From: Candidatus Pacearchaeota archaeon
Lineage (GTDB): Archaea; Nanobdellota; Nanobdellia; UBA10117; JAFCGI01
DNA length: 64,000 bases
Direction: 5' to 3'
NCBI GenBank assembly: GCA_017608235.1
Contig: JAFCGI010000001.1
Coordinates: 74,651-138,650, forward strand
The notes under the pieces were generated by a model. That model worked only from the letters and a program-made list of their open reading frames with translations, made no database searches and was not told where the DNA came from. Numbering within the stretch: position 1 is the first letter of the stretch; each line of letters begins with the position of its first letter. The position numbers were made by a program, and so were the translations under genes. This document shows positions 15,073-37,948 of this stretch, piece by piece.

Positions 15073-15172
15073 ACTATTTTGGAATAAGAATAAGATATTA
15101 AAAGCTTATTAAAGTCCAATAAATGATAAGATTATGAAAAAGTATTAAAGGTTTTCTAATTAGATTTATTAT

Positions 15173-23354: not shown

Positions 23355-23791
23355 AGTGCACTCCAAATATATAATTTAATTGTTACAGGATCTGATGATT
23401 TTGAGTATGTGTAAAATATGCTATGTATATTTTTATTATCTAAGTCAGAAGATCCACAACTTCTTCCTATAGAATAACAAGTATCTTGATAATAATATTC
23501 TGTTTCAAACATTATTGTTTTAGGAAGTTCTTTTTGTATGTAAAGATCTATTGTTGTAAAGTTTGAGTTTGTGATATTGTTAGCAAAATTATTTTCTAAT
23601 AAGTGTTCTTTATCAAGATTATATAGTGTATTGTAGCCTATTTTTTTAAGATTCTGAGATTCTGGAATTTTATTTACATCACAAGTTATTGTAAATACAG
23701 ATGCAAATAATGCTAATAACAAGAGAATTACTAATATTTCAATTGTGTAAACATATGCTTTTTTTGTTTTTATTATATTTGTTTTTACCAT
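23351..23791 (-). CDS. Class III signal-peptide pilin-like protein
   Basis: KKA|YVYTIEIL followed by hydrophobic helix; ends LYIW. Confidence 0.7.
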   Translation of the reverse strand: MVKTNIIKTKKAYVYTIEILVILLLLALFASVFTITCDVNKIPESQNLKKIGYNTLYNLDKEHLLENNFANNITNSNFTTIDLYIQKELPKTIMFETEYYYQDTCYSIGRSCGSSDLDNKNIHSIFYTYSKSSDPVTIKLYIWSAL

Positions 23792-25443: not shown

Positions 25444-25467
25444 TGGACGCGTTTTAGTTTAAATTAG

Positions 25468-25860
25468 TTATTGTATGGTATCATTTATTCCAAATTTGAA
25501 AGCATAAACCTGATATGAGATTTGGAAGTTTCCATCTATTGGAGTAGAGTTTCTTATTTTTGGATATTTATGTTCCTGGGCTTTTTTCCATTTTTCATAA
25601 GAAATATCATAAAATTTTGAATTATTCATTAATCCAAATCTAGATAATGAAGAGGAATTTTCCCAATTGAATGGTTCTCCTTGTTCTTTAAGAATTATAG
25701 CTTCTAATGTTTCTGATTGTATACATGCTTCTTCTAGGTTTGTGCTTCTTAATTCTGAACTTAGATTTGAGATGAAAGTTATAGAGATGTAGCTGAGTAT
25801 TACTATGAAAAAGAACATTATTACTATGTATTCTATAGAGGTTTGGGCCTTTGATTTCAT
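25468..25860 (-). CDS. Class III signal-peptide pilin-like protein
   Basis: KSKA|QTSIEY (E+5), GEPFNW..GL. Confidence 0.8.
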   Translation of the reverse strand: MKSKAQTSIEYIVIMFFFIVILSYISITFISNLSSELRSTNLEEACIQSETLEAIILKEQGEPFNWENSSSLSRFGLMNNSKFYDISYEKWKKAQEHKYPKIRNSTPIDGNFQISYQVYAFKFGINDTIQ

Positions 25861-25865
25861 TTTAA

Positions 25866-27020
25866 TTATTCTGAGATTATTGATTGTACTATTGTTCGAC
25901 TATAAGTTTCATAATTTACATCAACCTGCAGAGTGAAGTTTCCATATCTTAGTGGTGTTTCAAGTATTTTCTCAAATTTACCATCAGAATCTACCTTTAG
26001 TTTATAGATTTCTTCATCTTCTTCTCCCTTTGGAAAGATAATAGTTATGTCTGCTCCTTCTGAAGGAATTGTTTCAAGATATACATCACCTTTTACTACT
26101 ATTCCTTGTTCTGGAGCTACAGTTGTTGGGGTAATATAAACATCTGCTACGAATTCTGCTGGATATATAAATAGGAAAAATACAAATAATCCTGCTGAGA
26201 GCATTATTCCAATATGTTTAATTCCTGCTTTGACACTATCTTCGGTTATTTGGCCTGAGATTAGTCCTGCACATATTCCTTGAACTAGGATCATTAGCAA
26301 GAATAGATTTTTGAAATCCATTAGAGAAGGCATTTCTCCCCCAGCCATTCCAAAAAGCATTCCTACTCCAGCAATTTGTTGTGTGAATAAAATAGGAACT
26401 AATACTCTTTGTATTGCAATTAAAACGCCAAGGAACAGAATGAAGATAATATACATCATAAACATATGTTGTTTCATTAAAGATCTTCGGTCTGCTTCTA
26501 TTTCTTTTAGAGTTCGAATTTGTTCTGCTAAAGCATTTAAAATATCTACTATGTTTCCGCCAGATATGAAAGCTTCATGAATTATATCGTTTACTCTTTT
26601 GATTAAGTTGCTTTTTCTTAATCTGTATGTAAATTTAGACCAGGCTTCTGGAAAAGGTATGCTCCAAGATAGCCAAATATTTAGTTGATGAATATATTTT
26701 GAGAGTTTTCCATAATTTGTTTTTTCTGCAGTTTTTATTGCTTGAGGCAAAGTCATACCTGCTGCTTTTGATTGAGCAAGATCTCTTATGAATTCTGGAA
26801 AAGTTTGTTCTGCAGCTTCTAATTCTTGAATTTCAAGATATCCTAAAACAGCATAAGGAGCAGCAGAAATTATTCCACCTAGTGTGATTATTAAGATTAT
26901 GAGTGTATTAGGATAGCCTGCTAAGAAAATAAATATACTTATTAATGAAATTATTACTAGTCCTGAAACTAGTATTAATGTTCTTATGTCTATATCTTCA
27001 AGTGTTTTGTTTATTTCCAT
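25866..27020 (-). CDS. Type IV pilus platform protein (T2SS-F/TadC-like) with C-terminal Ig-like extension
   Basis: FPEFIRDLA...GMT...YGKL, SGG, GLISGQI. Confidence 0.88.
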   Translation of the reverse strand: MEINKTLEDIDIRTLILVSGLVIISLISIFIFLAGYPNTLIILIITLGGIISAAPYAVLGYLEIQELEAAEQTFPEFIRDLAQSKAAGMTLPQAIKTAEKTNYGKLSKYIHQLNIWLSWSIPFPEAWSKFTYRLRKSNLIKRVNDIIHEAFISGGNIVDILNALAEQIRTLKEIEADRRSLMKQHMFMMYIIFILFLGVLIAIQRVLVPILFTQQIAGVGMLFGMAGGEMPSLMDFKNLFLLMILVQGICAGLISGQITEDSVKAGIKHIGIMLSAGLFVFFLFIYPAEFVADVYITPTTVAPEQGIVVKGDVYLETIPSEGADITIIFPKGEEDEEIYKLKVDSDGKFEKILETPLRYGNFTLQVDVNYETYSRTIVQSIISE

Positions 27021-27892
27021 GGTGAGGTTTCTTTTATTATCATTATGAATATGAATGTTATTAATGGAATACCAAGTACAACTCCTAAGTATTGCATAAA
27101 TTGTAGTTGAGATAATGGAATTCCTCCCATAGAAGACATTAATGTGCTCATTACTATTAACAATGAGGATCCTACAACTACAAAACCAATATAGATTTGC
27201 ATTATTGTTGAGAGTCTTTTACTATATTCATCAACAACTCTTCTCCTTGCAGCAATTAAACTATGTGCTTTTTCCTCAAGATATGCAGAAATATCTCCGC
27301 CAGTAGTAATTCCAGATTTTAAACCAGAAAGAATTTCTGTCCATTGTGGAGAAGGAGATCTTGCTATTGCTCTTGATAGTGCTTTTGGTAAATCTATTCC
27401 GAGAGCTTCAACATCTTTTGTTATTTTTCCTGATTCTCTTGCAATTTCTTTGTATTCTTTAAATTTTGATAATAATTTGAATGCTTCTTGCGGTGGGAAG
27501 CCAGATCTTGTGATTGTAGATAAATATATTGCAGCAAATATAAGACTATTATCTATGTCACCTCTTCTTTTTTCTGCAAGAGTTTTTGGATAGTAATATG
27601 CTGTTAAAGATGCAATAAATGCTGCGAGTATTGGAATAGTGAATGTGATTATATTGCTTGATGGTCTGAGTTCTGGAAATAATATAAACAGGTAAAAATA
27701 TACAAAAAAAGAAGCAGCTATTAATGTGATTGGAAATACAAAAATAATCATTGCAAGATATTTTTCTGGAGAAACATCTATGTTTGCTGCTTTTAGATTA
27801 TATTTTACAGTAGGAAATATTGGTTCTAATTTTCTTACTATTGGCATAAAGATTTGCGATGCATAGTAATAGATGTCTTTTTTGTTAGCCAT
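27011..27892 (-). CDS. Type IV pilus platform protein (T2SS-F/TadB-like)
   Basis: IDNSL.FA..Y, SG.PP, G.D...AL, RSPS, GGD...YL. Confidence 0.88.
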   Translation of the reverse strand: MANKKDIYYYASQIFMPIVRKLEPIFPTVKYNLKAANIDVSPEKYLAMIIFVFPITLIAASFFVYFYLFILFPELRPSSNIITFTIPILAAFIASLTAYYYPKTLAEKRRGDIDNSLIFAAIYLSTITRSGFPPQEAFKLLSKFKEYKEIARESGKITKDVEALGIDLPKALSRAIARSPSPQWTEILSGLKSGITTGGDISAYLEEKAHSLIAARRRVVDEYSKRLSTIMQIYIGFVVVGSSLLIVMSTLMSSMGGIPLSQLQFMQYLGVVLGIPLITFIFIMIIKETSPWK

Positions 27893-27896
27893 TTTA

Positions 27897-30872
27897 TTAT
27901 TGAATTGTTGTTTTAGTTTGGCGCTTATTTTTTTCTTTTGAAATTTTTATGAGTTTGAATAATTTGTTTTGGTCTATATAGTAGGTATTTATTGTTTTTG
28001 CAGCGTCTAAGAAACTATGTAATTTTTCTTCCTGCATCCATTCTATTATTTTTACTCTTTTGAGAATTTCATTTTCTATTTGTTTTTTAGTCCAACCATG
28101 TTTTTCTGCAATTTTTGCTAGATGATAGCTGTTTTTGCTTATGAATTCATCTGTAGAAGGTTTCCATTTGAATGTCTCATTAGTCTTTATTTCTTTCTTT
28201 ATACGATCATAGCCTTCTAGTTCTATTATACTTCCTACTTTTCTTGTGAAGTGGCCCATTTTTTTTGCTCTTTCAAGAAAAACTATAATATCCAAATTTT
28301 GGAGTAATGATGCTGGAAGATCTATTGGTTTTGTAGTTAGTCTGTCTATAACTGCTTCTACTGTGTCTGCATGTAATGTGGATAAGCCAGGATGGCCCGT
28401 ATTATGCAAAAGTATACCACCAAAACCTCCAATGAAATTTTGTGTTCCTGGAACACAGAGATCATATACTGATTCTTCTTTTGGCAGAGAAATATTGTTT
28501 ATTTCTTTAACGGTATCAAGATATATGTCTTTAATTGTATTTTTATCTTTTTGTTCTTTTTTGTATTTAAATGGATATTTTAATTTTGTATATTTTATGA
28601 ATTCCTCTATGTATTTTGTTTTATAGATGCAAAGATTATAAACTGGAACATTTGTTCCTTTTGTTTTTTTAATATTGCATACAATTCCAAGAGTTAATAA
28701 TAGATATGCTAAATCATTTGCTAATTCTCTTGAAGATGTCCAATAACTAATATTTTTTTTATTTATGCTTCCGTTCCCAAGCCATAGTGCTTTTAGAAAT
28801 TCTCCTATTCTTTGTTTTGAGAGTCCAAATATGAAAAAAGGAATTTTTCTATGTTTACTATTGTCTCCGCAATATTTTTTCAGAAATTCAAATAATACTT
28901 TATTACTGAAACTTAATTCCGTTGATATACCAAAACCCTTTGTTAGTCTTTCTTTTATTTTGCAATCTAATGAATAGATACATTTTTTCATATCTTTTAG
29001 AATAATTGGATTTTTATTATATAGGGCTATTCTATTATTTTTCTTTGCTTTGTTAAGACTTCCTTCTGCGATGAAATAACCTAAGAATCTTAGAAATTCG
29101 TTTGTTATTTTTAATTTTGCAGATAGTGTTTTGCTTTTTTTATCACCTTTTATTTTTAATTTATTTAAATCATATTTGATTTTTGCTAGTTTCATTAGTT
29201 CTTCGAATTTATTAGCTTTGAGTGCTGAGAAGTGTTTTCTTGCGTAACAGTCTGATATTGTTTTTAAATTAGTGATTTTGCATGCTTTTTTATAGCCTAT
29301 TTTTCTAACAGCATCTTTAATTAAACTAGGTGCTATTACTCTGAGATTTGGTAGAAGTTCTATTAAGTTTAGATGTTTTATATTTTTGAAATTGCAAGGA
29401 AGTTTAGCAGGAATTGCTATTTTATCTCCTTTTTTAAGGTTGTCTACTACTACTCCTTTTAATTCGTTATTTTCTATTGTTAAAAGTGAATGATTTATTG
29501 TAGAAATAACTTCTCTACCTGTTTTTGTTTTGATCATAATTAAATTTGATCTTGGGCTGTGACTTTGACAATCTTTTAGGTTAGCTATTGTTATTTCTCC
29601 AGGATTTTCTGAAAAAGTTGGTACTTTGTAATTTTTTGTGTCTTTAATTTGATTTATATTTTGTATTCTTGGAAAGCCTTTGTTATCAATTACGTATGTT
29701 TTTTCGTTGCCTTTAATTGATGCCATAGCCTGGAACATTACAGTTGCTTCTTTGCCTCTGACTTCTCCTACTATTATATAGTCTGGACGTTGTCTCATAG
29801 ATGCTTTTAGTAAATCAAACATGTCTACTTGCCCATAACCTTTTGCTCCAAATCCAGATCTTGCTACTTGTGGTAGCCAGTTGATTCTGGGAATTTGAAG
29901 TTCTGCTGTGTCTTCTATTGAGACTATTTTTAATCCTGGAGCTATAAACAAACATAGACTATTTAGTAAAGTTGTTTTTCCTGTTGCTGTTGATCCTGCT
30001 ATTAAGATAGATTTTTGTTCTTCTATCATTAGCCAAAGATAAGCTAGTATTAAAGGATTAAGAGTTCCGAAGTTCAGAATATCTATAGGTGTTAGTGGAA
30101 TTCTGAAGAACTTTCTGATGCTGAAGTTTGAACCCTTTCTTGCTATGTCTGTACCATATGTTAGTTGAAGTCTTGAGCCATCAGGAAGTGTTGAATCCAA
30201 AAGAGGGGTGGCAACAGAAATAGTTCTTCCAGATTTTTGGGCAAGTTTCATTACAAAAGAATCCATGTCATCCTTTTTTATGAATGATATATTTGTAGGC
30301 ATTTCTGAATATAGTGGATTTCTATGAAATATAAATACAGGAGACTTTATTCCATTGCAACTTATATCTTCTATATTTGGATCATGCATTAAAGCTTCAA
30401 CTCTACCTAAGCCAATAGTGTCTCTGAAAATATAGTATTTTGTTTTAACTATATCTTGAGGCTTTAATTTTATTCCAAGATATTCCCAGATTTCATCTAT
30501 TTTATTATCTATGTAAGTATAGACTTGTTTTTTTATTGCTAAGCTGCTAAAATCTATTTCAAGTCTTTCTTTTAATAATTCGGAAGTTTTGTCTATGATT
30601 TTTCTTAATCTTATATCTATTTTAGGTTCGAGTACTTCATAGATGATATCATTTAATTGCTTATTATAATGTATGTAAGCGAATGCTACAGGGATTACTT
30701 TTTTACCTATTTTTATTTTAATTAAGGGGTAGGTTTCTGAGATGGATTTTATTTTTTTAGAAATATCATCTTTTGCTTCTAGTTCTAGAGCTTTTTTTGT
30801 AGGTAAGCTTATTCTGAATTCTTGGTTTTTTTGTGAATTTGATTTAGCTGTAGCTATATTGGGCGCAGTCAT
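27897..30872 (-). CDS. Type IV pilus assembly ATPase (VirB11/ArlI-like) containing an intein
   Basis: DPNIEDISC, Walker A GSTATGKTT, SIEDTAE, RQRPDYIIVGEVRG, TGH..STLHA. Confidence 0.95.
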   Translation of the reverse strand: MTAPNIATAKSNSQKNQEFRISLPTKKALELEAKDDISKKIKSISETYPLIKIKIGKKVIPVAFAYIHYNKQLNDIIYEVLEPKIDIRLRKIIDKTSELLKERLEIDFSSLAIKKQVYTYIDNKIDEIWEYLGIKLKPQDIVKTKYYIFRDTIGLGRVEALMHDPNIEDISCNGIKSPVFIFHRNPLYSEMPTNISFIKKDDMDSFVMKLAQKSGRTISVATPLLDSTLPDGSRLQLTYGTDIARKGSNFSIRKFFRIPLTPIDILNFGTLNPLILAYLWLMIEEQKSILIAGSTATGKTTLLNSLCLFIAPGLKIVSIEDTAELQIPRINWLPQVARSGFGAKGYGQVDMFDLLKASMRQRPDYIIVGEVRGKEATVMFQAMASIKGNEKTYVIDNKGFPRIQNINQIKDTKNYKVPTFSENPGEITIANLKDCQSHSPRSNLIMIKTKTGREVISTINHSLLTIENNELKGVVVDNLKKGDKIAIPAKLPCNFKNIKHLNLIELLPNLRVIAPSLIKDAVRKIGYKKACKITNLKTISDCYARKHFSALKANKFEELMKLAKIKYDLNKLKIKGDKKSKTLSAKLKITNEFLRFLGYFIAEGSLNKAKKNNRIALYNKNPIILKDMKKCIYSLDCKIKERLTKGFGISTELSFSNKVLFEFLKKYCGDNSKHRKIPFFIFGLSKQRIGEFLKALWLGNGSINKKNISYWTSSRELANDLAYLLLTLGIVCNIKKTKGTNVPVYNLCIYKTKYIEEFIKYTKLKYPFKYKKEQKDKNTIKDIYLDTVKEINNISLPKEESVYDLCVPGTQNFIGGFGGILLHNTGHPGLSTLHADTVEAVIDRLTTKPIDLPASLLQNLDIIVFLERAKKMGHFTRKVGSIIELEGYDRIKKEIKTNETFKWKPSTDEFISKNSYHLAKIAEKHGWTKKQIENEILKRVKIIEWMQEEKLHSFLDAAKTINTYYIDQNKLFKLIKISKEKNKRQTKTTIQ
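28401..29720 (-). mobile_element. 440-aa intein with LAGLIDADG endonuclease domain
   Basis: Interrupts FQAMA|TGH. Starts SIKGNE, block B STINHSL, LAGLIDADG motifs FLGYFIAEG and FLKALWLGNG, block F VYDLCV, ends LHN followed by Thr. Confidence 0.95.
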
Positions 30873-30947
30873 ATCTTAGAAGTATGTATTTTGCATTAAA
30901 AAAGCTTACTTAATGTTTAGAAATCGTAGTTATTATAGAGTAACAAG

Positions 30948-31373
30948 CTAAGATAGAATGATTTTATCTTTTTCAGGAGAATATTCTAGTGAGATTTTTT
31001 GATTTTCTGAAAATGCTAATCCTTGAGTGCTTTTATTCCAGGTTTTTATGTTATGTATTTTGGAGATTGCTTGTGTTCCTCGAATGTCTATTTTAGTTTT
31101 GTTTCCTAATAAGGAAATTTCATAAGAGTCTTTTCCAATTTCTGCTGGAATTGGTTTTGAGATTTTTATATAACCATATTCTGAGAATATTTTTAAATTT
31201 TCTATAGAGTTTTCTAGGTTTTGATTTTCTAGAGAAATTATTTGTTCTCCTGATTTTTCTATAACATTTTTTTCTATTCCTTCATAAGAGATTATTATTA
31301 GTGCAAGTACTGTAATACTTATTATGGAAGAGATTATTAGAAAAAAAGCACTAAAAGCAGTTTTAGATTTCAT
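30948..31373 (-). CDS. Pilin-like protein (class III-like signal)
   Basis: MKSKTA|FSAFF followed by hydrophobic helix; IPAEIG..SY.I. Confidence 0.6.
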   Translation of the reverse strand: MKSKTAFSAFFLIISSIISITVLALIIISYEGIEKNVIEKSGEQIISLENQNLENSIENLKIFSEYGYIKISKPIPAEIGKDSYEISLLGNKTKIDIRGTQAISKIHNIKTWNKSTQGLAFSENQKISLEYSPEKDKIILS

Positions 31374-31893
31374 AGGATTTGACCTCTATTATTTGATAGA
31401 TTGTTTCTGAACATGGAGAGGTGGTTATGTTTTCTTGTTTGTATGAGAGATATATATTATTATAGGTGTTTTTTGATAGAGATAAAGTGTTTTTTAATTG
31501 AATACCATAGCAATTATCTGCTGTAGGATCTTTATATTCTAGGACAACCCTATTAGAGTTTGAACCTATTTTAGATAGGCTATCTTGATAAAAATTAGCA
31601 TAATTAGATTGGGAATTTCGCTTTATGAATTCTATTTTATTTGTGGTGATGATAAGATCTTCATCATCTTCTAGAAAGAATTCATAAGGACCTTTTTTAC
31701 TTTGTTCGCGGGCAGAGTCTTGTATAAGCTGATTTATTTCGTGAAAGTTTAATTCGACTGTATTAAGTCTTTTTTTATCTTGGCTTTCTTTTAGTGTGGT
31801 TCTTGCAAACACTAAAGATATTGTAAGTATGGATATTATCATAATTAATACTAAAAGATATGAGATCATTGCTTGGGCTTTTTTTTTAGCCAT
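31363..31893 (-). CDS. Archaeal-type pilin-like protein
   Basis: KKKA|QAMISYLL followed by hydrophobic helix. Confidence 0.75.
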   Translation of the reverse strand: MAKKKAQAMISYLLVLIMIISILTISLVFARTTLKESQDKKRLNTVELNFHEINQLIQDSAREQSKKGPYEFFLEDDEDLIITTNKIEFIKRNSQSNYANFYQDSLSKIGSNSNRVVLEYKDPTADNCYGIQLKNTLSLSKNTYNNIYLSYKQENITTSPCSETIYQIIEVKSYEI

Positions 31894-31943
31894 ATTAATT
31901 ATATGTGTTTAGAAGTTTAAAAACTTGTAGATTTTGAATAAAA

Positions 31944-32483
31944 TTAGAGTTCTATTGAGGATATTATTTGACCAAATCCGCAAGGAGTATCAAAATAAAT
32001 ATTATAATTTATACTTCCTGATTCTGCGGTTAGAGAACAAGCACTCCCACTTAAATTAAATTTTAATTCTATAGCATTATTAAATGAGGTATTACAACCA
32101 GTTGTACAATCTATGTCACCAGAGACCCCGTTTACAGGCTCATTAAAACATATATCCCAATTATCTAAATAACGTCCGTTTTCGGTTTGTATACTAAAAT
32201 AAGTATCATTATCATTGCTTTCATAAATTGTTTCAGCTGTAGATCTTAGATTTGTTAGTTGGACTGTTAGCACATCTGTGGTGCTATTATATGTATTTCC
32301 TGAAACTAGAAATTTTGAGCACATTCTTGATTGACCTTCTTCATTTATTGTGGATTCTAGTTCTGCTACACTTTCTTTTCCGTATTCTAGAACAACTCTT
32401 GTACCTAGTATAGTTATGAGTAAACTTATGGTTAAGACTGCTAGCATTTCTATTATTGTAAATGCTTTTTTGGAATTAATCAT
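31944..32483 (-). CDS. Pilin with bacterial-type FTxxE N-terminus
   Basis: KKA|FTIIEMLAVL; Cys-rich head. Confidence 0.8.
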   Translation of the reverse strand: MINSKKAFTIIEMLAVLTISLLITILGTRVVLEYGKESVAELESTINEEGQSRMCSKFLVSGNTYNSTTDVLTVQLTNLRSTAETIYESNDNDTYFSIQTENGRYLDNWDICFNEPVNGVSGDIDCTTGCNTSFNNAIELKFNLSGSACSLTAESGSINYNIYFDTPCGFGQIISSIEL

Positions 32484-32556
32484 ATTATTATTTTAGAAAT
32501 TGTTGATATATATTTGTTTTGATATTAGATAAAAGAAAAAGAAAAAATGCATGGGA

Positions 32557-33069
32557 TTATGCTGCATTTGTTATTGCGTTACTTGTTGCATAATTACCAA
32601 GGTTATTTTTATCACATACAACGTCATTACTATCTTGAGCTGCAGTTAATACTACTTTTGTTACATTGTCGCTAAATGTTAAGTCCCATATACCATCATT
32701 ATATGATACACCACCTTGTATCCATACAGATCCATTATATCCTCTTGCGGCACCGCTTCCATTTAATATTGTATATTGTCTAAGTGGACATCCAGAGCTA
32801 GAATCTATTCTCCAACTAGTGTTTACTGTGGTAATACTTACGGTGTTTTGATATTGACCATTTTCACAATTCATTACTGCTGTTGAAAAACCTGAGGACC
32901 AGCTATAACAGCTAGCTGCTTGCGTACCTTGATTTTCAGTTAGTATTAATTGGTCTGGTACAGACTCTAATGCTCCTCTTAAAAAAGTTATAGCTATACT
33001 ACTTAATACTGCTATAATAGTCATAACTACTACTAATTCCATTAATGTAAATGCTTTTTTATTTACCAT
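32557..33069 (-). CDS. Pilin with bacterial-type FTxxE N-terminus; candidate major pilin
   Basis: KKA|FTLMELVVVMTIIAVL; strong GGAGG RBS upstream and T-rich tract downstream. Confidence 0.85.
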   Translation of the reverse strand: MVNKKAFTLMELVVVMTIIAVLSSIAITFLRGALESVPDQLILTENQGTQAASCYSWSSGFSTAVMNCENGQYQNTVSITTVNTSWRIDSSSGCPLRQYTILNGSGAARGYNGSVWIQGGVSYNDGIWDLTFSDNVTKVVLTAAQDSNDVVCDKNNLGNYATSNAITNAA

Positions 33070-33150
33070 TTTTCCTCCTTATTTTTATATAATTCTTAGT
33101 TTAGTATTGAGTAGTTGCTTATTATTTATATATATTTCTCTAGGATTAAA

Positions 33151-33645
33151 CTATACTACTCTTGCTGGAATTTGTCTATATGTATATGTTTCGCATCCAG
33201 ATAGTGTTAGATATAACCATGATGCTTTTTCTTGTGCACATCCAGGTACTTCTGCACTAGTATTTCCTATACAAGCTACTATAGACCCTGTGGCATTCTT
33301 ACATGTTAGATTGGAAGTACATATACTATATTCTGTGCTGCTAGAATTTTTAAGATAATCTATTTCTACAGCATAAGGTTCAGTTAATAATTCAAGACCG
33401 TCTTTAATGGATGGTATAGTGAATGTATAATTATTTGATGTTTCATTATAGGAAACATTAATATTTTCTATATCTTTCATTATTTCTTCAGTATTTTCAT
33501 AGCAATCTGTCTGGTTTGTGGATTTGTCAAGGGTTGTTCGTCCAAATGTTATTACTAATGTATATAGAGTAGCTATTATTATAGTAGTGATTACTAATTC
33601 AATTATTGTAAACGCTTTTTTATTATTCTTTTCTTTTAATTTCAT
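33151..33645 (-). CDS. Pilin with bacterial-type FTxxE N-terminus (start taken at internal ATG 33645)
   Basis: KKA|FTIIELVITTIIIA. Confidence 0.8.
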   Translation of the reverse strand: MKLKEKNNKKAFTIIELVITTIIIATLYTLVITFGRTTLDKSTNQTDCYENTEEIMKDIENINVSYNETSNNYTFTIPSIKDGLELLTEPYAVEIDYLKNSSSTEYSICTSNLTCKNATGSIVACIGNTSAEVPGCAQEKASWLYLTLSGCETYTYRQIPARVV

Positions 33646-33649
33646 ATGG

Positions 33650-34168
33650 CTAAAATGTAAATTTGAATACATCAATTTCTTCTCCACAACCTTCTATAAG
33701 TAATAATATTTGTGATGCTTGGTTTCCTCCACATATATTTGTACCATTTATAGTACCTATTTTTCCAGGAGTACATTCAGTAGATCCACATCTAAGGGTT
33801 GCATATTCTTTAATATTATTTTGACATGTTACAATAACATCATTTATTTCATTAGATAGTCTGAAATCTCCTGCTTGAGAATCTGAATAAGGATGTAGTC
33901 CACAACTATTATAATTTGGGATATCGTTAGTGGTATAGATTTTTGTAGAACTGTTATAAGTTATGTTAAGTGCTGGACAGCCTGAGAAGTCTGGAGCTTC
34001 ATTATAAATAATTAGTTGAGCATAATCAAATATACATCCTTGTTGGTTTTTATGTTCTCTAATAGCACCTATTACTTGTGGTGCTGCAGTTGCTATTATT
34101 GTAAATGCAATTGTGATTGCTACCATTAATTCAACTATGAATGATGCTTTTTTGTTTAGGTGCGCCAT
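33650..34168 (-). CDS. Pilin-like protein with E+5
   Basis: KKA|SFIVELMVAI; Cys-rich head. Confidence 0.75.
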   Translation of the reverse strand: MAHLNKKASFIVELMVAITIAFTIIATAAPQVIGAIREHKNQQGCIFDYAQLIIYNEAPDFSGCPALNITYNSSTKIYTTNDIPNYNSCGLHPYSDSQAGDFRLSNEINDVIVTCQNNIKEYATLRCGSTECTPGKIGTINGTNICGGNQASQILLLIEGCGEEIDVFKFTF

Positions 34169-34228
34169 TTTATTATTAGTATTTAGTGTTTTAATTGTTT
34201 ATTATTTTTTTGATTTTGATAGTTATGA

Positions 34229-34663
34229 TTATGAAGGCATTGGTGCTGATGCTGGAAAGCTTATTTTGGAAGGCATTATTAAAACATTAAAGTAAGTTCC
34301 AGTGCAACCACCAGGAATTGTTGTAGAAATAACACATGAAAATGCTGTGCAAATTTGTTCGCTGTTGACATTTGAAGTACATACAATATCTTCATTTTGA
34401 TCAAGTATTTGTACTTCTGATTCTGTAGATATTTTTAGAGTAGGAGCAAATTTTATAAATTCAATACTGAGAGTGTTTCCAATTAAAACCGCACCTTCAT
34501 ATTGTATTCCAGCCATGCTTTGAGCATTATCGCCTATATTTTCATATATTCTTTGAGGATTTTCTCTGAACCAAGGAAGAGATATTGAGATACCAAGCAA
34601 GATTATAATTACTACTATTACGAATGATATATAGTTTGCTAGGGCTTTTGAGTTGTTTTTCAT
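34229..34663 (-). CDS. Pilin-like protein
   Basis: NSKA|LANYISFV followed by hydrophobic helix. Confidence 0.65.
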   Translation of the reverse strand: MKNNSKALANYISFVIVVIIILLGISISLPWFRENPQRIYENIGDNAQSMAGIQYEGAVLIGNTLSIEFIKFAPTLKISTESEVQILDQNEDIVCTSNVNSEQICTAFSCVISTTIPGGCTGTYFNVLIMPSKISFPASAPMPS

Positions 34664-34668
34664 TTTAT

Positions 34669-35181
34669 TTAACGACACCAAAATGGACAGTGAGATCCTC
34701 CATATGCATAAGGTAACCTATAAGTATAATTTGTATTTAGGGGACAATTGGTGAGATTAATTAATCCATTATTTGCGCAATCTGTGCAACTTGCTGTACA
34801 ATATTCTTTAGTTCCATCTGACTTATATACAGTAACTGTGCCACCGTCTTGGATTCTTAATGTAGAGGGTAAAGGATAAGAATCATTTGGCATGTTAAAA
34901 TAACCATCAGAGCAAGTTTCTCCAGTATCTAATATCCAGTTTCTAAATTGTTTTTGTTCATTTGTACATGTTGCAAAATATTGTTGAGTAAGTGGAGGTG
35001 TTATTGTATTTAGTGCAGTGTTTCCTGCAGTAGGAGCTGTTGGATTATATATTCCATTAGTAGTAGCTTTAGTTTTTTCTATAATATCTTCTTTGTATGT
35101 ACGCTCAACAATAGTAGTGCTAGCTAATACAATTAATATTAATACTAAAATAGAGATTATGTTTGATATAGCTTTTTTCAT
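34669..35181 (-). CDS. Archaeal-type pilin-like protein
   Basis: MKKA|ISNIISIL; paralogue of 35237-35719. Confidence 0.75.
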   Translation of the reverse strand: MKKAISNIISILVLILIVLASTTIVERTYKEDIIEKTKATTNGIYNPTAPTAGNTALNTITPPLTQQYFATCTNEQKQFRNWILDTGETCSDGYFNMPNDSYPLPSTLRIQDGGTVTVYKSDGTKEYCTASCTDCANNGLINLTNCPLNTNYTYRLPYAYGGSHCPFWCR

Positions 35182-35236
35182 TGTTTTATATTTTATAATT
35201 AGCTTTTGAATTATTTATTTCTTTTTATTATTATAT

Positions 35237-35719
35237 TTAACATGTGAATTTGCAGGTAGCTTCATTGCCTTCGTAAGTAACTTTATATTTTATAGTGTAA
35301 ATTAGTGAGTTTGCAAGACTGCAGTTAGAGAGATTTAATAAACCATTGTTTCCGCAATCACTACAAGTTACTATGCAGGTTTCAAAAGTCTTATCTGGAT
35401 ATTTAACTATAGTATCACTATTGTTTATAACTTCTCCAGATAAGTATGTGAAGGTTGCAGGAGGCATGTTGAAAGATCCATCATTACATTTTTCATTGTA
35501 TTTTAATTGGTAATCATGAATTGCTGTTATGTCATGAATACAGAGTTCTTTTGCTTTGGTGCTGGGAAATAATGTATCTAAAACTTCTTTGTGTTTTATA
35601 GATGTGTCTGATGCAAACATATCTATGTTTTCTTTATAGTTATTGTAGAGAATTGCTAAGCTTGAAAGTGCTATTAATATTATTATGCTCATAGAAATTA
35701 GATGTGAGGCTTTTTTCAT
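35237..35719 (-). CDS. Pilin-like protein
   Basis: MKKA|SHLISM; shares C.DG.FNMP and C.DC.NNGL.NL.NC with the neighbouring gene. Confidence 0.7.
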   Translation of the reverse strand: MKKASHLISMSIIILIALSSLAILYNNYKENIDMFASDTSIKHKEVLDTLFPSTKAKELCIHDITAIHDYQLKYNEKCNDGSFNMPPATFTYLSGEVINNSDTIVKYPDKTFETCIVTCSDCGNNGLLNLSNCSLANSLIYTIKYKVTYEGNEATCKFTC

Positions 35720-35737
35720 TATGAATCATATGTATTG

Positions 35738-36214
35738 TTAGGCTATAAAGCTTACTGGTACAGAATGTATGTTATTTGGTTGGAAGATTATTTGGGCAGA
35801 TATTTCTCCAAGATTAGTTAGATTGCATACTGGGATTGTAAATTCGTTGAAAGAGTTTTCTTGAATAATTATTTCACCAGTGGTATTACATATTTCTATT
35901 ATACATTCTGTTCTTGTTGTGCTGATATCTTTTAGTATAAGAAGAGATTCTGGATCATAGTTTCTACAAGCAAATAATTTTGTAGTACCTTTATTTTCAG
36001 CTTTAATAGTAAGATTTAATACTGAGGAATCATAAGAAGGATTTGATAATATAATATTGGTTTCTACTTGGGCAAATACATTATCTGCTTGATCTTTGCT
36101 TATGGATGTGAGTTTGTCTCTTTCTATAGCATACCAAACAGAAACTATTGAAAGTAAGAAAACAGTTAATAAAATAATTAAAGAAAGAGAAAGAGTCTGG
36201 GTTGCTTTCATCAC
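35738..36214 (-). CDS. Pilin-like protein
   Basis: MMKA|TQTLSL followed by hydrophobic helix; ENKGTT. Confidence 0.65.
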   Translation of the reverse strand: MMKATQTLSLSLIILLTVFLLSIVSVWYAIERDKLTSISKDQADNVFAQVETNIILSNPSYDSSVLNLTIKAENKGTTKLFACRNYDPESLLILKDISTTRTECIIEICNTTGEIIIQENSFNEFTIPVCNLTNLGEISAQIIFQPNNIHSVPVSFIA

Positions 36215-36714
36215 TCAGATGTTAGATAGAATAGATATCCATCTATATTTGTTGGTTTGAATGTTAATAGTATTTTTGTGTTTACTCCAGATGACACTGC
36301 ATTTATGCTACAGTTTAGATCTCCACTTGCATTAAGTCCACAGCAAGGAAGCGAAATTTCTAGTTTTTCTCCTGAAAGTGCACCATTATGACTAAAATGG
36401 CCATCACAATATACTTGGTCGCCTTCTATTGATACTACTTGGTATGTACTGGCGTTAGAGGAGTCAGCTTTTATTGTTGTAGTGCCTACATTTTTGAAAG
36501 TGATATTTATTGGGTTTACTCCATCTTGAGCTATAACTCTTAATGAGCCAGCTAATGCTTGAGATACTTGTATGTCTGTAGCCTGTGATTGGGCAGCACT
36601 TGTTTTTTCTTGAGATGATTTCCAACTTACTCCTGCTGCTGCTGCAATACCTAAAACTATTAATACTAACATTAATCCGCCTACTAAGTTTGATTGTGCT
36701 TTTTTACTTATCAT
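36211..36714 (-). CDS. Archaeal-type pilin
   Basis: KKA|QSNLVGGLML; NPINITFKNVG, CDGHF. Confidence 0.8.
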   Translation of the reverse strand: MISKKAQSNLVGGLMLVLIVLGIAAAAGVSWKSSQEKTSAAQSQATDIQVSQALAGSLRVIAQDGVNPINITFKNVGTTTIKADSSNASTYQVVSIEGDQVYCDGHFSHNGALSGEKLEISLPCCGLNASGDLNCSINAVSSGVNTKILLTFKPTNIDGYLFYLTSE

Positions 36715-36771
36715 TTTTAATCCTCTTTTTGTTTAAATTAGGAATTGTTCCTTTTTTTATGTTATTTAGTA

Positions 36772-37272
36772 TTATCTGGTGAGGAATATTGATAGAGGAT
36801 ACTTTATTTCTTTTAGTGCTATATAGTCTCCTTGATGAAATCCAAGAATTATGATTACTGTATTATTTACTTGAGAATCTCTGTAAGATGTTAGATCACA
36901 GTCAGAGATTAGTATTGTACCTTTTTGCTGTTTTGGAATTTCTGGGGAATTAAAGTGTCCATCGCATATTTTTTTTTCAGATTCTTGTTTTATGAAGTAT
37001 GTGCTGGATGAGTTTTTAATTTTGATATCTCCTTGATTAAGTATTGTTATATTAATAGGATTTCCTGCGGTTCCTATTCCTGTGATACTTAGTGTTTCAA
37101 GATTGTGAGAAAGATATCCAGCAACTTTTTGATCCACTAGCTGAGTGCCTGCTGCAGTCAAGTCATCTACAGAGTTTTTTTGAGTATCATTAAAAAATAC
37201 AAATATGGAAATCATGATTAAAGTTATGGCTAGAAATCCTAGTGTGTTTGCTGCAGCTTTTTTTGATTTCAT
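36772..37272 (-). CDS. Archaeal-type pilin-like protein
   Basis: KKA|AANTLG; NPINITILNQG, CDGHF (paralogue of 36211-36714). Confidence 0.75.
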   Translation of the reverse strand: MKSKKAAANTLGFLAITLIMISIFVFFNDTQKNSVDDLTAAGTQLVDQKVAGYLSHNLETLSITGIGTAGNPINITILNQGDIKIKNSSSTYFIKQESEKKICDGHFNSPEIPKQQKGTILISDCDLTSYRDSQVNNTVIIILGFHQGDYIALKEIKYPLSIFLTR

Positions 37273-37306
37273 GATATAATGATTAAATAAGAAAAAAGTA
37301 AAAAAT

Positions 37307-37879
37307 TTATGTTGCGTAAGCTATAAACATTGCTGTTGCTTCTACACCATCAGGTTCAAAAGTGGTTTCTACTGTTATTCTCTTATTTATGTTGTTATTT
37401 AGTCCTTCATAACAAGTGGTGTTTGTTAGATTTAGTTTAATTCTTCTAGAATCATGTCCTGGAAGATCTTCACTACAACCTTCATTACATTCTATATAGC
37501 TATTTGATCCATCTCCACACCATTTAACTGCTGAACAAATTGGATCTAAATCTTCATCTAGAATATTTGTACGCGTTGTTGAAATTCCTTCTGCACATAT
37601 GTCTCTAATTTCTCTTAGAGTTGTTCTACCATTATTAACAACTGTGAATTCCATTCCCCCAGAATCATTATCATATACTACATTTTCTATAGTTATTGCT
37701 TTTCCATATTTAGCAGTTTGTGCATCTACTTGTTCAGTACCTGCTGCCTGAAGTCCAGAACTCATTTTTGAGAACCAGATGAATGCTGCTCCAGCAGAAG
37801 CTACAGCTAACATTAGTAATAATAAAACCGCTAAAATTGGAGAGATACCTTTCTTTGATAAAAATAAGTTGCCTTTCAT
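37307..37879 (-). CDS. Archaeal pilin/archaellin-type N-terminus protein; candidate major pilin
   Basis: KKG|ISPILAVLLLLMLAVASAG...W; first gene of the array, followed by a T-rich tract. Confidence 0.85.
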   Translation of the reverse strand: MKGNLFLSKKGISPILAVLLLLMLAVASAGAAFIWFSKMSSGLQAAGTEQVDAQTAKYGKAITIENVVYDNDSGGMEFTVVNNGRTTLREIRDICAEGISTTRTNILDEDLDPICSAVKWCGDGSNSYIECNEGCSEDLPGHDSRRIKLNLTNTTCYEGLNNNINKRITVETTFEPDGVEATAMFIAYAT

Positions 37880-37948
37880 TTTCGGTTTGGTTTCCTTTAT
37901 TGTATTATTGAGTGTATTTGAGCTTTTTATATTTTTCTTTTTAAATTC

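What the first reader, a model, noticed from the sequence alone, without database searches (positions are those of the whole stretch)
30948..37879. Tandem array of 13 divergent pilin-like genes upstream of one pilus ATPase
Seen: 13 consecutive co-oriented ORFs of about 140-190 aa, each with a short basic leader, a K-A/G-type cleavage site, a hydrophobic helix and a variable head, mostly Cys-rich with N-x-S/T sequons. Three more such genes plus a LamG protein follow the platform genes. Characterised archaeal pilus loci have far fewer pilins. Inference: a diversified adhesin repertoire for host recognition or virus evasion in a probable episymbiont. No prepilin peptidase is in the window.
Basis: partly seen in the sequence, partly recalled or inferred. 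Interest (0 to 1): 0.8.

Follow-up and report, generated by a model that had tools for sequence, protein, structure and literature searches.

The report
Expanded pilin array, DPANN pilus operon
A tiny, probably host-dependent archaeon carries the usual pilus (surface filament) operon of its relatives, but its block of filament-subunit genes has grown to 13 very different copies, about twice the largest number seen in related genomes, which probably gives the filament a varied sticky surface.

Summary
Thirteen co-oriented ORFs (141-190 aa, window 30948-37879) all start with a prepilin-type (class III) leader and a hydrophobic helix. They sit directly upstream of a PilB/FlaI-type ATPase, two platform genes, three more pilin-like genes and a LamG protein. 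A prepilin peptidase is encoded on another contig.

This is the conserved type IV pilus operon of a Woesearchaeota-type DPANN order, and this scan has already met it in many other genomes. What is new here is the size and make-up of the array:
- Related loci whose upstream run I could close carry 0-7 pilin-like genes (77 loci) or 0-3 (61 more distant loci).
- p12 and p13 are the conserved ATPase-proximal pair.
- p01 is the conserved archaellin/PilA-like pilin. Its model has a pilin fold, and its best structural match is an archaeal type IV pilus.
- p02-p04 and p11 are divergent copies of that family.
- p05-p10 have heads with no detectable relative. Five of these six were searched against 1.8-5.8 billion proteins.
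- Four genes (p08-p11) carry a bacterial-style F-T-x-x-E N-terminus, found in no other of 38 genomes of the order.

The adhesin or virus-evasion role is plausible but untested. Verdict: a new variant of a known kind, of moderate interest.

The parts
37307..37879 (-). p01: conserved archaellin/PilA-like pilin (family F1), leader MKGNLFLSKKG|ISPILAV; candidate major pilin
   Evidence: TIGR02537 arch_flag_Nterm scores 30.7 bits against a cut-off of 20. BLAST finds relatives in 15 of 20 related loci. hhalign to F1 gives 99.7%. The AF2 model has pLDDT 82, with helix 14-59 followed by a beta-sandwich. The best Foldseek hit is 8fk7, the Pyrobaculum archaeal type IV pilus, at E 1.6e-7.
35738..37272 (-). 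p02 (36772-37272), p03 (36211-36714), p04 (35738-36214): divergent F1-like pilins
   Evidence: Class III-like leaders. hhalign to F1 gives 92, 96.3 and 89.5% full length, and 12, 73 and 46% head-only. p02/p03 are 32% identical. BLAST finds p02 and p03 in 0 of 20 related loci and gives p04 only weak hits.
34669..35719 (-). p05 (35237-35719) and p06 (34669-35181): paralogous pair with 8-Cys orphan heads
   Evidence: 33% identical. A profile of the pair against 1.84 billion representatives finds only themselves plus one 829-aa protein at E 5e-6. p06 stands alone in the 5.8-billion set. No relative was found in metagenome contigs. The head-only hhalign score against F1 is at shuffle level. The AF2 model is unusable, pLDDT 47.9.
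34229..34681 (-). p07: pilin-like, 4 Cys, no sequon; head of unclear kinship
   Evidence: Leader ...NNSKA|LANYISF. hhalign to F1 gives 71.5% full length but 2.9% head-only. It was not searched in the large protein sets.
31944..34168 (-). p08 (33650-34168), p09 (33151-33687, or 33151-33645 from the ATG), p10 (32557-33069), p11 (31944-32483): four pilin-like genes with K-K-A|(F-T/S-F)-x-x-E, a bacterial-style N-terminus with Glu at +5
   Evidence: E at +5. PF07963 N_methyl: p10 scores 28.5 bits (cut-off 21.2), p09 18.2 and p11 17.8. TIGR02532: p10 scores 29.3 and p11 16.3 (cut-off 16.3). The 5' ends form a 4-copy, 50-nt DNA repeat of 68-72% identity. The p11 head is F1-like at 96.6-97%, with the alignment starting at residue 49. 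p08+p09 and p10 find only themselves in the 5.8-billion set.
31363..31893 (-). p12: conserved accessory pilin, family F2
   Evidence: hhalign to F2 gives 97.7% over 168 columns. F2 is present once in each of 18 loci. 10 of 19 family members match Pfam DUF7289. That family rings only in Haloferax volcanii and Methanosarcina acetivorans among 14 control genomes.
30948..31373 (-). p13: conserved ATPase-proximal accessory pilin, family F3 (leader MKSKTA|FSAFF)
   Evidence: hhalign to F3 gives 98.6% over 141 columns. F3 is present in 18 loci. 7 of 18 members match Pfam DUF7266.
27897..30872 (-). PilB/FlaI-type secretion ATPase (991 aa), interrupted by a 440-aa LAGLIDADG intein (residues 385-824)
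   Evidence: T2SSE 97.2 bits, LAGLIDADG_3 73.4, Intein_splicing 68.7. The boundaries read ...FQAMA|S...HN|TGH. The nearest solved chain is 2oap (282.7 bits), ahead of FlaI 4ii7 (231.2). Orthologues of 51-64% identity occur in 34 of 40 relatives, with open frames of 429-666 aa.
27011..27892 (-). Platform protein 1 (TadB/PilC-like)
   Evidence: T2SSF 55.1 bits. Orthologues in 19 of 20 loci.
25866..27020 (-). Platform protein 2 (TadC/PilC-like)
   Evidence: T2SSF 51.4 bits. Orthologues in 19 of 20 loci. These two genes are the only T2SSF matches in the genome.
25468..25860 (-). p14: N-terminal half of the conserved downstream pilin family F4 (leader MKSKA|QTSIEY)
   Evidence: hhalign to F4 gives 99.5%. 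Class_IIIsignal scores 18.6 bits, below the cut-off of 23.7. It aligns to the first ~130 residues of the 275-360-aa F4 proteins.
23785..25443 (-). LamG-domain protein (552 aa); its last ~150 residues are the C-terminal half of family F4
   Evidence: Laminin_G_3 72 bits, residues 188-348. Residues 403-552 match the C-terminal part of the same F4 proteins that p14 matches. It is in frame with p14 but separated from it by two TAA stops.
23351..23791 (-). p15: conserved downstream pilin-like protein, family F5
   Evidence: hhalign to F5 gives 99.7%. BLAST hits in 13 of 20 loci.
22662..23366 (-). p16: conserved downstream pilin-like protein, family F6 (11 sequons)
   Evidence: hhalign to F6 gives 99.8%. 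BLAST hits in 10 of 20 loci. Sequon count.

Best explanation
This is the conserved type IV pilus operon of a Woesearchaeota-type DPANN order.

The ancestral layout, next to the thermosome gene, is: a few archaellin/PilA-like pilins (F1), two accessory pilins (F2, F3), the ATPase, two platform genes, then three further pilin-like genes (F4-F6).

In this genome the F1 block has grown to eleven genes (p01-p11). I infer that this happened by tandem duplication followed by very fast divergence of the heads.

Inferred working:
1. All 13 precursors are cut after the K-[G/A] site by the genome's single FlaK/PibD-type class III signal peptidase.
2. Their heads are disulfide-bonded and N-glycosylated by the AglB encoded 16 kb away.
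3. The one ATPase/platform motor assembles them through their N-terminal helices.
4. p01, the only widely conserved F1 member, is the likeliest main subunit.
5. p12, p13 and p14-p16 are the conserved accessory or priming set.
6. p02-p11 are lineage-specific alternative or low-abundance subunits that vary the exposed surface of the filament, for attachment to cells or surfaces.

Shown: gene content, signals, synteny, family assignments, the p01 fold, the orphan status of five heads, and the peptidase. Inferred: processing, glycosylation, co-assembly and the adhesive role.
For: - Signals: 13 of 13 genes have class III-like signals, against 3.9% of genome ORFs.
- Motor and platform genes are present.
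- Peptidase_A24 is encoded on contig C1. Its sequence contains G-G-G-D-A-K (my reading of it as a catalytic GxGD motif is recalled), and its only PDB relative is FlaK, 3s0x, E 5e-7.
- The same gene order is seen in 20 related loci.
- p13 belongs to F3 (98.6%), p12 to F2 (97.7%) and p01 to F1 (99.7%); p03, p11, p02 and p04 score 96-89% against F1.
- Head-only support for F1 exists for p01, p11, p03 and p04.
- The p01 model is helix plus beta-sandwich. Its best matches are archaeal type IV pili, archaellins and FlaF/FlaG.
- 13 of 18 F1 members match Pfam Arch_flagellin.
- Upstream run sizes are 13 here, against 1-6 (20 loci), at most 7 (77 closed loci) and at most 3 (61 further closed loci).
- The four F-T-x-x-E genes share a 50-nt repeat at their 5' ends, and p08, p09 and p11 are weakly alike over 95-162 residues. 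Both point to tandem duplication.
- Cys counts are even in 12 of 12 proteins, Cys is 2.96% against 1.02%, and sequons are 2.02 against 0.63 per 100 aa.
- An STT3/AglB gene lies at 12469-15072.
- All 13 frames are intact.
Against: - There is no expression, proteome or imaging evidence. No sequencing run could be listed.
- PMC13705601 (passages read) says it is unclear whether DPANN type IV filament genes make surface structures at all.
- Six of 13 heads (p05-p10) have no detectable link to F1 or to any fold. The one that was modelled failed. A common origin by duplication is therefore an inference for them, resting on shared N-termini and weak pairwise similarity.
- Curated pilin models pass for only 3 of the 13 genes.
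- The genome holds several clusters of small (90-109 aa) pilin-like genes elsewhere. These could be the real major pilins, as in Methanococcus.
- My pilin flag is a home-made filter. Unflagged ORFs inside some relatives' runs would raise their counts by one, to at most 8.
- No close strain was available, so neither turnover nor selection could be measured.
Confidence: 0.65

Rival explanations
1. The 13 in-operon proteins are all minor pilins or a priming/tip complex. The bulk of the filament is made by small stand-alone pilins encoded elsewhere in the genome, as in the Methanococcus Epd pilus.
For: The genome has clusters of 90-109-aa pilin-like ORFs on contigs C6, C7, C19 (about 189-190 kb), C21 and C45. 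Makarova et al. 2016 (PMC4858521, passages read) describe small, roughly 70-aa stand-alone major pilins alongside many in-locus minor pilins. p12, p13 and p14-p16 are single-copy and conserved, as accessory pilins would be.
Against: F1 (p01's family) is multi-copy, archaellin/PilA-like and has a filament-subunit fold. That fits a major pilin better. The best 80 genome hits of the ATPase include no Methanococcales, Methanobacteriales or Thermococcales. Ten or more minor pilins would itself be unusual.
Confidence: 0.2
2. Most of the lineage-specific members are not filament subunits. They are cell-surface proteins that merely use the class III signal and helix as a membrane or pseudopilus anchor (bindosome-like), for example binding proteins or a surface coat.
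For: PMC13705601 (passages read) describes substrate-binding proteins with class III signals that depend on a type IV filament base. The heads of p05-p10 have no detectable pilin kinship. A LamG lectin-type protein sits in the same operon.
Against: The heads are small (110-150 aa), with no match to any binding-protein family. The genes sit between bona fide pilins inside the pilus operon. p11 combines the same N-terminus type as p08-p10 with a clear pilin head.
Confidence: 0.1
3. The extra copies are evolutionary debris: recent duplicates drifting towards loss, with no distinct function.
For: No homologues were found anywhere for five heads. The genome is the largest of its order in the sample (1.2 Mb against 0.3-1.0 Mb).
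Against: All 13 frames are open, and all keep the leader, cleavage site and helix. Cys counts are even in 12 of 12 proteins, which drift would break. Pairwise identities of 33% or less mean the copies are old and have nevertheless been kept.
Confidence: 0.04
4. The locus encodes an archaellum (motility filament) rather than an adhesive pilus.
For: The best NCBIfam hit of the ATPase is FlaI, at 300.7 bits but below the cut-off of 550. F1 members match Pfam Arch_flagellin (13 of 18). p01 and p04 hit ArlF weakly.
Against: No KaiC-like ArlH gene and no ArlC/D/E/X-like gene lie in the operon. The platform is two T2SSF genes, not one ArlJ. No archaellin in the genome reaches the Pfam cut-off; the best is 20.1 bits on another contig. 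The ATPase is closer to 2oap than to FlaI.
Confidence: 0.01

Closest known systems
Euryarchaeal 'clade 2 / system 2' adhesion pili (Haloferax volcanii PilB-PilC with PilA1-6; Archaeoglobus afGspE-type ATPase), as catalogued by Makarova, Koonin & Albers 2016 (PMC4858521)
   Same: - A FlaI/PilB-type ATPase whose nearest solved relative is 2oap.
- Among the best 80 genome hits of the ATPase, the non-DPANN ones are Halobacteria, Methanomicrobia, Thermoplasmatota and Nitrososphaerota.
- Archaellin/PilA-type N-terminus on p01 (TIGR02537).
- Several paralogous pilins share one motor.
- The accessory pilin families of the relatives match DUF7289 and DUF7266. DUF7289 rings in H. volcanii and M. acetivorans but not in M. 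jannaschii or S. acidocaldarius.
- Two tadC-like genes occur in many clade 2 loci, according to PMC4858521.
   Different: - Thirteen pilin-like genes in one operon upstream of the motor, against six PilA genes, mostly scattered, in H. volcanii.
- Most heads are orphan.
- Four subunits have F-T-x-x-E N-termini.
- PMC13705601 defines system 2 by a single platform gene, whereas this locus has two.
- No ATPase tree was built here, so the clade assignment is only a lead.
Epd pilus / archaeal 'system 1' (Methanococcus maripaludis)
   Same: Two platform genes and a high variety of in-locus pilin-like proteins. PMC13705601 lists Nanobdellati among system 1 holders. The F4 family has the Q-x-x-x-E-[YF] class III motif.
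   Different: - No dedicated peptidase lies in the locus. The genome's only Peptidase_A24 matches FlaK.
- None of the 80 best genome hits of the ATPase is from Methanococcales, Methanobacteriales or Thermococcales.
- The F1 pilins have full heads, unlike the headless EpdE-type major pilin described.
Bacterial type IV pilin sets with minor pilins (G|F-x-x-x-E prepilins; four core minor pilins of T4aP/T2SS) and the pilus-dependent episymbiosis of Saccharibacteria (PMC9894109 and PMC11623550, abstracts only)
   Same: p10 passes and p11 just reaches the bacterial prepilin N-terminal model TIGR02532. In the controls that model rings in 8 bacteria and in 0 of 4 archaea. There are four adjacent genes of this type. 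The biological setting is similar: an ultrasmall, probably host-attached cell.
   Different: The -1 residue is Ala, not Gly. The heads are unrelated to bacterial pilins, and p11's head is archaeal F1. The motor, platform and peptidase are archaeal. N-methylation is unknown.
The same DPANN pilus operon in other genomes of this scan (earlier AI notes e1-3380211, e1-1063455, e1-3523214, e1-905343)
   Same: ATPase look-alikes occur in 37 windows of 37 genomes. Those notes describe the same type of operon with fast-evolving pilins.
   Different: Those notes describe up to nine prepilin-like genes, or a few giant modular pilins. This locus has none above 190 aa in the array, but many small ones. I did not re-check those notes.

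Membership tests
Archaeal type IV pilus / type IV filament superfamily | Secretion ATPase of the PilB/FlaI/VirB11 type | tested here: met
   T2SSE scores 97.2 bits against a cut-off of 24.9. PDB 2oap scores 282.7 bits and FlaI 231.2.
Archaeal type IV pilus / type IV filament superfamily | Polytopic platform protein (PilC/TadC/FlaJ, T2SSF domain) | tested here: met
   Two adjacent genes, T2SSF 55.1 and 51.4 bits against a cut-off of 25.2. They are the only such genes in the genome.
Archaeal type IV pilus / type IV filament superfamily | Subunits with a class III signal peptide (short basic leader, G/A at -1, hydrophobic helix) | tested here: met
   13 of 13 pass my filter, with p13 having K-T-A. 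Curated models pass for p01 and p10, and for p11 exactly at the cut-off. FlaFind, PilFind and SignalP were not available.
Archaeal type IV pilus / type IV filament superfamily | Class III signal peptidase (Peptidase A24) in the genome | tested here: met
   G000:C1:7478-7843, 51.7 bits against a cut-off of 26.5. The 297-aa ORF scores 46.7 bits. It matches FlaK 3s0x at E 5e-7.
Archaeal type IV pilus / type IV filament superfamily | Pilin fold (long N-terminal helix plus beta-rich head) | tested here: inconclusive
   Met for p01 (pLDDT 82; best hit 8fk7, E 1.6e-7). The p06 model was unusable (pLDDT 47.9). The other 11 were not modelled. p02-p04 and p11-p13 are linked to pilin families by profile only.
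Clade 2 / system 2 euryarchaeal-type pili | ATPase groups with clade 2 ATPases | tested here: inconclusive
   The nearest solved chain is 2oap. Halobacteria, Methanomicrobia and Nitrososphaerota are among the best 80 genome hits at 37-45% identity. No phylogeny with arCOG references was made, and the clade of 2oap is recalled, not tested.
Clade 2 / system 2 euryarchaeal-type pili | Single platform gene (criterion of PMC13705601) | tested here: not met
   Two T2SSF genes. PMC4858521, however, says many clade 2 loci have two tadC-like genes.
Clade 2 / system 2 euryarchaeal-type pili | PilA/archaellin-type pilin N-terminus and the clade's accessory pilin families | tested here: met
   p01 passes TIGR02537. 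F2 matches DUF7289 in 10 of 19 members and F3 matches DUF7266 in 7 of 18. DUF7289 rings in H. volcanii and M. acetivorans only, among 14 controls. The window's own p12 and p13 reach these families only through the F2 and F3 profiles.
System 1 / Epd pilus | Two platform genes | tested here: met
System 1 / Epd pilus | Dedicated EppA-type peptidase, usually in the locus | tested here: not met
   No peptidase lies in the window. The genome has a single Peptidase_A24 on another contig, and its best named match is FlaK.
System 1 / Epd pilus | ATPase groups with Methanococcales, Methanobacteriales or Thermococcales (clade 1) | tested here: not met
   0 of the 80 best genome-contig hits carry such a title. 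This rests on a ranking, not a tree.
Archaellum | ArlH, ArlF/G, ArlC/D/E or X and archaellins together with ArlI/ArlJ | tested here: not met
   None of these accessory genes is in the operon. No Arch_flagellin match in the genome exceeds the cut-off. The KaiC-family search is unspecific, since it rings in all 14 controls.
Bacterial type IV prepilins (GFxxxE) | N-terminal cleavage/methylation motif with Gly at -1, Phe at +1 and Glu at +5 | tested here: inconclusive
   TIGR02532 is passed by p10 (29.3 bits) and reached by p11 (16.3, the cut-off). F at +1 occurs in p09-p11, and E at +5 in p08-p11. The -1 residue is Ala in all four. Methylation cannot be tested with these tools.

The most novel reading that the evidence does not exclude
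The array is a hybrid. After a lineage-specific burst of duplication, a four-gene sub-block (p08-p11) replaced the archaeal pilin core helix with a bacterial-style F-T-x-x-E helix while keeping, at least in p11, an archaeal pilin head.

One archaeal motor and one peptidase would then handle two incompatible helix types. They would build either two kinds of filament, or a bacterial-like four-subunit tip/priming complex on an archaeal shaft. The orphan heads p05-p10 would serve as exchangeable host-binding or virus-decoy surfaces.

That would be a new way for an archaeal pilus to be organised. It might also reflect gene-segment capture from bacterial neighbours.
Probability: 0.15. Interest if true: 0.75.

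Novelty: new variant of a known kind. Interest (0 to 1): 0.48.

Why it matters
How DPANN archaea grip partners or surfaces is still unknown. The latest census of archaeal type IV filaments (PMC13705601, passages read) reports that these archaea rarely show an ordered locus and that their pilins look scattered.

This locus shows a fully ordered operon with 16 pilin-like genes. It also shows that most of them escape family-based detection:
- Ten of 13 array genes pass no curated model.
- Five of the heads searched have no relative among billions of proteins.

It offers a natural experiment. One conserved motor is paired with a conserved subunit set and a lineage-specific, fast-diverging subunit set that includes two different core-helix types. 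That could be used to ask what decides which pilins a machine accepts. If the extra subunits are surface-exposed, they are the obvious candidates for host specificity or virus receptor variation in this lineage.

Tried and rejected
- Close strains for array comparison or dN/dS. A metagenome scan with the p05+p06 profile found no relative. The scan with the ATPase gave 80 loci, the best segment identities being 53-68% and none a near strain. The comparison was therefore not possible.
- Sequencing runs for expression or population variation: none was listed, and read laying was not used.
- Structure of an orphan head: the AF2 model of p06 with its paralogue had pLDDT 47.9 and was not searched further.
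- ESM Atlas look-up for p10: only N_methyl clusters at score 0.79, below the level that counts.
- Recombination or cassette mechanism (as in Neisseria pilE/pilS): the only DNA repeats in 30800-38000 are the roughly 50-nt 5' ends of p08-p11 and a few 18-43-nt matches. There are no long repeats or inverted repeats. Rejected.
- Read-through fusion of p14 with the LamG protein: they are in frame, but two TAA codons lie between them. Rejected.
- Foreign origin judged by composition: GC is 0.28-0.32 across the array and similar in its flanks. No signal.
- Shine-Dalgarno check of the start codons: SD-like motifs precede only a few of the 13 starts. Uninformative.
- KaiC/ArlH search: unspecific, as it rings in all 14 control genomes.
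- The 10 other phylum genomes with TIGR02532 hits: similarity to p08-p11 is confined almost entirely to the N-terminal helix. Whether they are real archaeal genes or bin contaminants was not examined.
- Two slips of mine were corrected at once: a DNA reference with stop codons and an over-long search term. One search was an empty script.
- Literature: three searches found no paper describing an expanded in-operon pilin array in DPANN or Woesearchaeota. The supplements of PMC13705601 (S4 and S5 Tables, S10 Fig), which list DPANN filament genes, could not be opened and may bear on this.

Full report
**What is there.** Searches show one long minus-strand gene string, listed here in the direction of transcription:
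- thirteen ORFs of 141-190 aa (p01 = 37307-37879 through p13 = 30948-31373);
- a 991-aa ATPase (27897-30872);
- two membrane proteins (27011-27892 and 25866-27020);
- a 130-aa ORF (p14);
- a 552-aa protein;
- two more small ORFs (p15, p16).

The thirteen ORFs are spaced from -38 to +81 nt (coordinates). Pfam names the ATPase T2SSE (97.2 bits), both membrane proteins T2SSF (55.1 and 51.4 bits) and the 552-aa protein Laminin_G_3 (72 bits). The window is G000:C19:74651-138650 of a 1.2-Mb, 56-contig genome that is 93% complete. Its nearest relatives carry Woesearchaeota or Nanoarchaeota labels.

**Is the pilin signal real and more than chance?**
- All 13 start with a short basic leader ending in G or A, followed by a hydrophobic stretch (mean Kyte-Doolittle 1.8-2.6 over 22 residues for the first twelve; p13).
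- Twelve have K-[GA] at the cut. p13 has K-T-A.
- A loose filter of the same kind flags 76 of 1952 ORFs of at least 70 aa in the whole genome, including all 13. Thirteen in a row is therefore not chance.
- Curated models are less generous. p01 passes TIGR02537 (archaellin/type IV pilin N-terminus). p10 passes PF07963 and TIGR02532. p11 sits exactly at the TIGR02532 cut-off. p09 and p11 fall below the PF07963 cut-off. The other nine match nothing pilin-like.
- The mature proteins have 2.96% Cys against 1.02% in 796 background ORFs, and 2.02 sequons per 100 aa against 0.63.
- All 12 that contain Cys have an even number, against 48% in the background. This fits exported, disulfide-bonded, glycosylated heads.
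- An STT3/AglB gene lies at 12469-15072.

**The missing peptidase.** The genome has one Peptidase_A24 gene on contig C1 (51.7 bits). Its product is 297 aa and contains G-G-G-D-A-K. Its only solved relative is FlaK (3s0x, E 5e-7). The genome has three T2SSE-type ATPases, but T2SSF platform genes occur only in this locus.

**Relatives.**
- The N-extein of the ATPase finds orthologues of 51-64% identity in 34 of 40 same-order or same-class genomes.
- I fetched 20 of these loci and mapped their ORFs with the same filter.
- They share one layout: thermosome, a conserved 140-170-aa non-pilin gene, a run of pilin-like genes, ATPase, two platform genes and three pilin-like genes.
- Clustering the 153 flagged proteins gave several families. 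F1 has 48 members in 14 loci (about 180 aa, some 500-800 aa). F2 and F3 each have 18 members in 18 loci and lie next to the ATPase. F4-F6 lie downstream.
- Profile comparison assigns p13 to F3 (98.6%), p12 to F2 (97.7%), p01 to F1 (99.7%), p14 to F4, p15 to F5 and p16 to F6.
- p03, p11, p02 and p04 score 96.3, 96.6, 92.0 and 89.5% against F1, and p07 scores 71.5%.
- With the N-terminal helix removed, F1 kinship holds for p01 (95.9%), p11 (96.6%), p03 (73%) and p04 (46%). It is weak for p02 (12%).
- For p05-p10 the head-only probabilities are 0.3-2.9%. Their scores (12.7-18.2) barely exceed those of shuffled sequences (up to 16).
- By plain BLAST, p02, p03 and p05-p10 hit nothing in the 20 loci. 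Past residue 70, p02, p03 and p05-p12 hit nothing in 110 loci.

**How unusual is the number?** I counted pilin-like ORFs in the contiguous same-strand run upstream of the ATPase.
- The window has 13.
- The 20 genome loci have 1-6.
- All 77 related loci whose run is closed by another gene have 0-7. The distribution is 0:27, 1:25, 2:10, 3:1, 4:4, 5:6, 6:3 and 7:1.
- Another 61 closed loci from more distant archaea have 0-3. A few records occur in both sets.
- The filter is my own. Unflagged ORFs inside some runs would add one gene.
- Earlier unchecked notes of this scan mention other DPANN arrays of 15-20 pilin-like genes without a motor. Large pilin-like arrays as such are therefore not unique to this genome. 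In this operon type, this is the largest I saw.

**Orphan heads.**
- p06 alone and p10 alone find only themselves among 5.8 billion clustered proteins. So does the p08+p09 profile.
- The p05+p06 profile against 1.84 billion representatives finds the pair plus one 829-aa protein at E 5e-6, which repeats the C-terminal Cys motif.
- p07 was not searched.
- The first three searches use word seeding and a length window. They show "not found at this sensitivity", not absence.

**Fold.**
- With 17 F1 relatives as its alignment, p01 folds with mean pLDDT 82 into a helix (14-59) plus a beta-sandwich.
- Foldseek's best matches are the Pyrobaculum archaeal type IV pilus (8fk7, E 1.6e-7), FlaF/FlaG, archaellins and Sulfolobus pili.
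- 13 of 18 F1 members match Pfam Arch_flagellin.
- p06 could not be modelled.

**Two kinds of N-terminus.**
- p08-p11 read K-K-A|S-F-I-V-E or K-K-A|F-T-x-x-E, with Glu at +5.
- In the 20 related loci, Glu at +5 occurs in 16 of 153 flagged proteins. All 16 are F4, with a different Q-x-x-x-E-[YF] motif.
- The bacterial prepilin model TIGR02532 matches 1 of 39 genomes of the order, namely this one. It matches 11 of 401 sampled genomes of the phylum, this one included. In the controls it matches 8 bacteria and 0 of 4 archaea.
- The p11 head aligns to F1 from residue 49 onward (97%), including the conserved Cys pattern. Its helix is left out of that alignment.
- The 5' ends of the four genes form a 50-nt repeat of 68-72% identity to its reference copy.
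- p08, p09 and p11 are weakly alike over 95-162 residues (E 1e-4 to 4e-3; p09/p11 E 8e-6).
- I read this as one sub-family that arose by tandem duplication from an F1-type gene with a changed helix, and whose heads then diverged. Capture of a bacterial N-terminal segment is possible but not shown.

**Which known system?**
- The ATPase is nearer to 2oap (282.7 bits) than to FlaI (231.2).
- Beyond the DPANN, its best genome hits are Halobacteria, Methanomicrobia, Thermoplasmatota and Nitrososphaerota at 37-45% identity. None of the 80 is from Methanococcales, Methanobacteriales or Thermococcales.
- F2 and F3 members match DUF7289 (10 of 19) and DUF7266 (7 of 18). DUF7289 rings only in Haloferax volcanii and Methanosarcina acetivorans among 14 controls.
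- This points to the euryarchaeal "clade 2" pili of Makarova et al. 2016 (PMC4858521, passages read), which also often have two tadC-like genes.
- PMC13705601 (passages read) instead uses two platform genes as a mark of system 1 and assigns many DPANN pilins to system 1. Earlier notes of this scan are split in the same way.
- I built no tree, so I leave the clade open and call the locus clade-2-like.
- An archaellum is unlikely. The operon has no ArlH or ArlC/D/E/X gene, the platform is split in two, and no archaellin in the genome passes the cut-off.

**Mechanism.**
- Shown: one motor, one platform pair, one peptidase, a conserved accessory set (p12, p13, p14-p16), one conserved filament-type pilin (p01) and ten lineage-specific pilin-like genes kept intact.
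- Inferred: cleavage by the class III peptidase, glycosylation and disulfide formation, and assembly into one filament or a few. I take p01 as the main subunit and p02-p11 as alternative or minor subunits that diversify the exposed surface.
- A role in attachment follows from what type IV pili do in archaea (PMC13705601) and in ultrasmall bacterial episymbionts (PMC9894109 and PMC11623550, abstracts only).
- Virus pressure is plausible, because pilins are virus receptors in Sulfolobus (PMC7217056, abstract only).
- None of this was tested here.

**Novelty.** The machine is a known kind, and the same operon has been met repeatedly by this scan. Four things are new:
- the size of the in-operon array;
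- the fraction of orphan heads;
- the mix of archaeal-type and bacterial-style core helices in one operon;
- the split of F4 around a LamG module.

Three literature searches found no description of such an array in DPANN. The supplements of PMC13705601 could not be read.

Noticed in passing
window 27897-30872 (intein = residues 385-824 of the ATPase): The pilus ATPase is interrupted by a 440-aa LAGLIDADG intein between ...FQAMA and TGH.... None of the 34 orthologues of 51-64% identity found among 40 relatives has an open frame long enough to hold one; theirs are 429-666 aa. Eight of 100 related loci have ATPase ORFs above 700 aa, and I did not examine them.
   Followed up: partly
window 23785-25860: The conserved downstream pilin-like gene F4 (275-360 aa in relatives) is split here. 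p14 matches its first ~130 residues, and the last ~150 residues of the LamG protein match its C-terminal part. About 400 residues, comprising a new signal-like N-terminus and a LamG domain, lie in between. The two ORFs are in frame but separated by two TAA codons.
   Followed up: partly
window 37949-38455: A 168-aa gene with no Pfam match lies between the thermosome gene and the pilin array. It is conserved at 43-54% identity among its six best hits and was found in 11 of 20 related loci, in the same place relative to the pilus operon.
   Followed up: no
G000:C19:181521-196205 (outside the window, same contig): A second T2SSE-type ATPase (758-aa frame) is followed within 15 kb by seven pilin-like ORFs, three of them with K-K-A|Q-I-S leaders. 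No T2SSF platform gene was detected near it. A 750-800-aa ATPase of this type recurs in most relatives.
   Followed up: no
G000 contigs C6, C7, C21, C45: Small clusters of 90-190-aa pilin-like ORFs with near-identical N-termini within each cluster, for example K-Q-G|F-E-L-R on C7 and K-K-A|Q-T-S-G-L on C45. They are possible stand-alone major pilins.
   Followed up: no
window 12469-17664: An STT3/AglB oligosaccharyltransferase (867 aa, with W-W-D-Y-G) lies next to a 613-aa polytopic membrane protein with no Pfam match and to small glycosyltransferase-like ORFs. This is a glycosylation cluster 16 kb from the pilin array.
   Followed up: no
L103-L112 (other genomes of the phylum): Ten of 400 other sampled genomes of the phylum hold ORFs that pass the bacterial prepilin model TIGR02532. 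Some have a textbook R-K-K-G|F-T-V-I-E-L start. I did not check whether these are true archaeal genes or bacterial contigs in the bins.
   Followed up: partly
L005, L012-L015, L020, L021 (related loci): In relatives the F1 position often holds one to four large (476-906 aa) pilin-like proteins instead of many small ones. L005, for example, has four paralogues of 476-490 aa. Relatives seem to enlarge heads where this genome multiplies genes.
   Followed up: no
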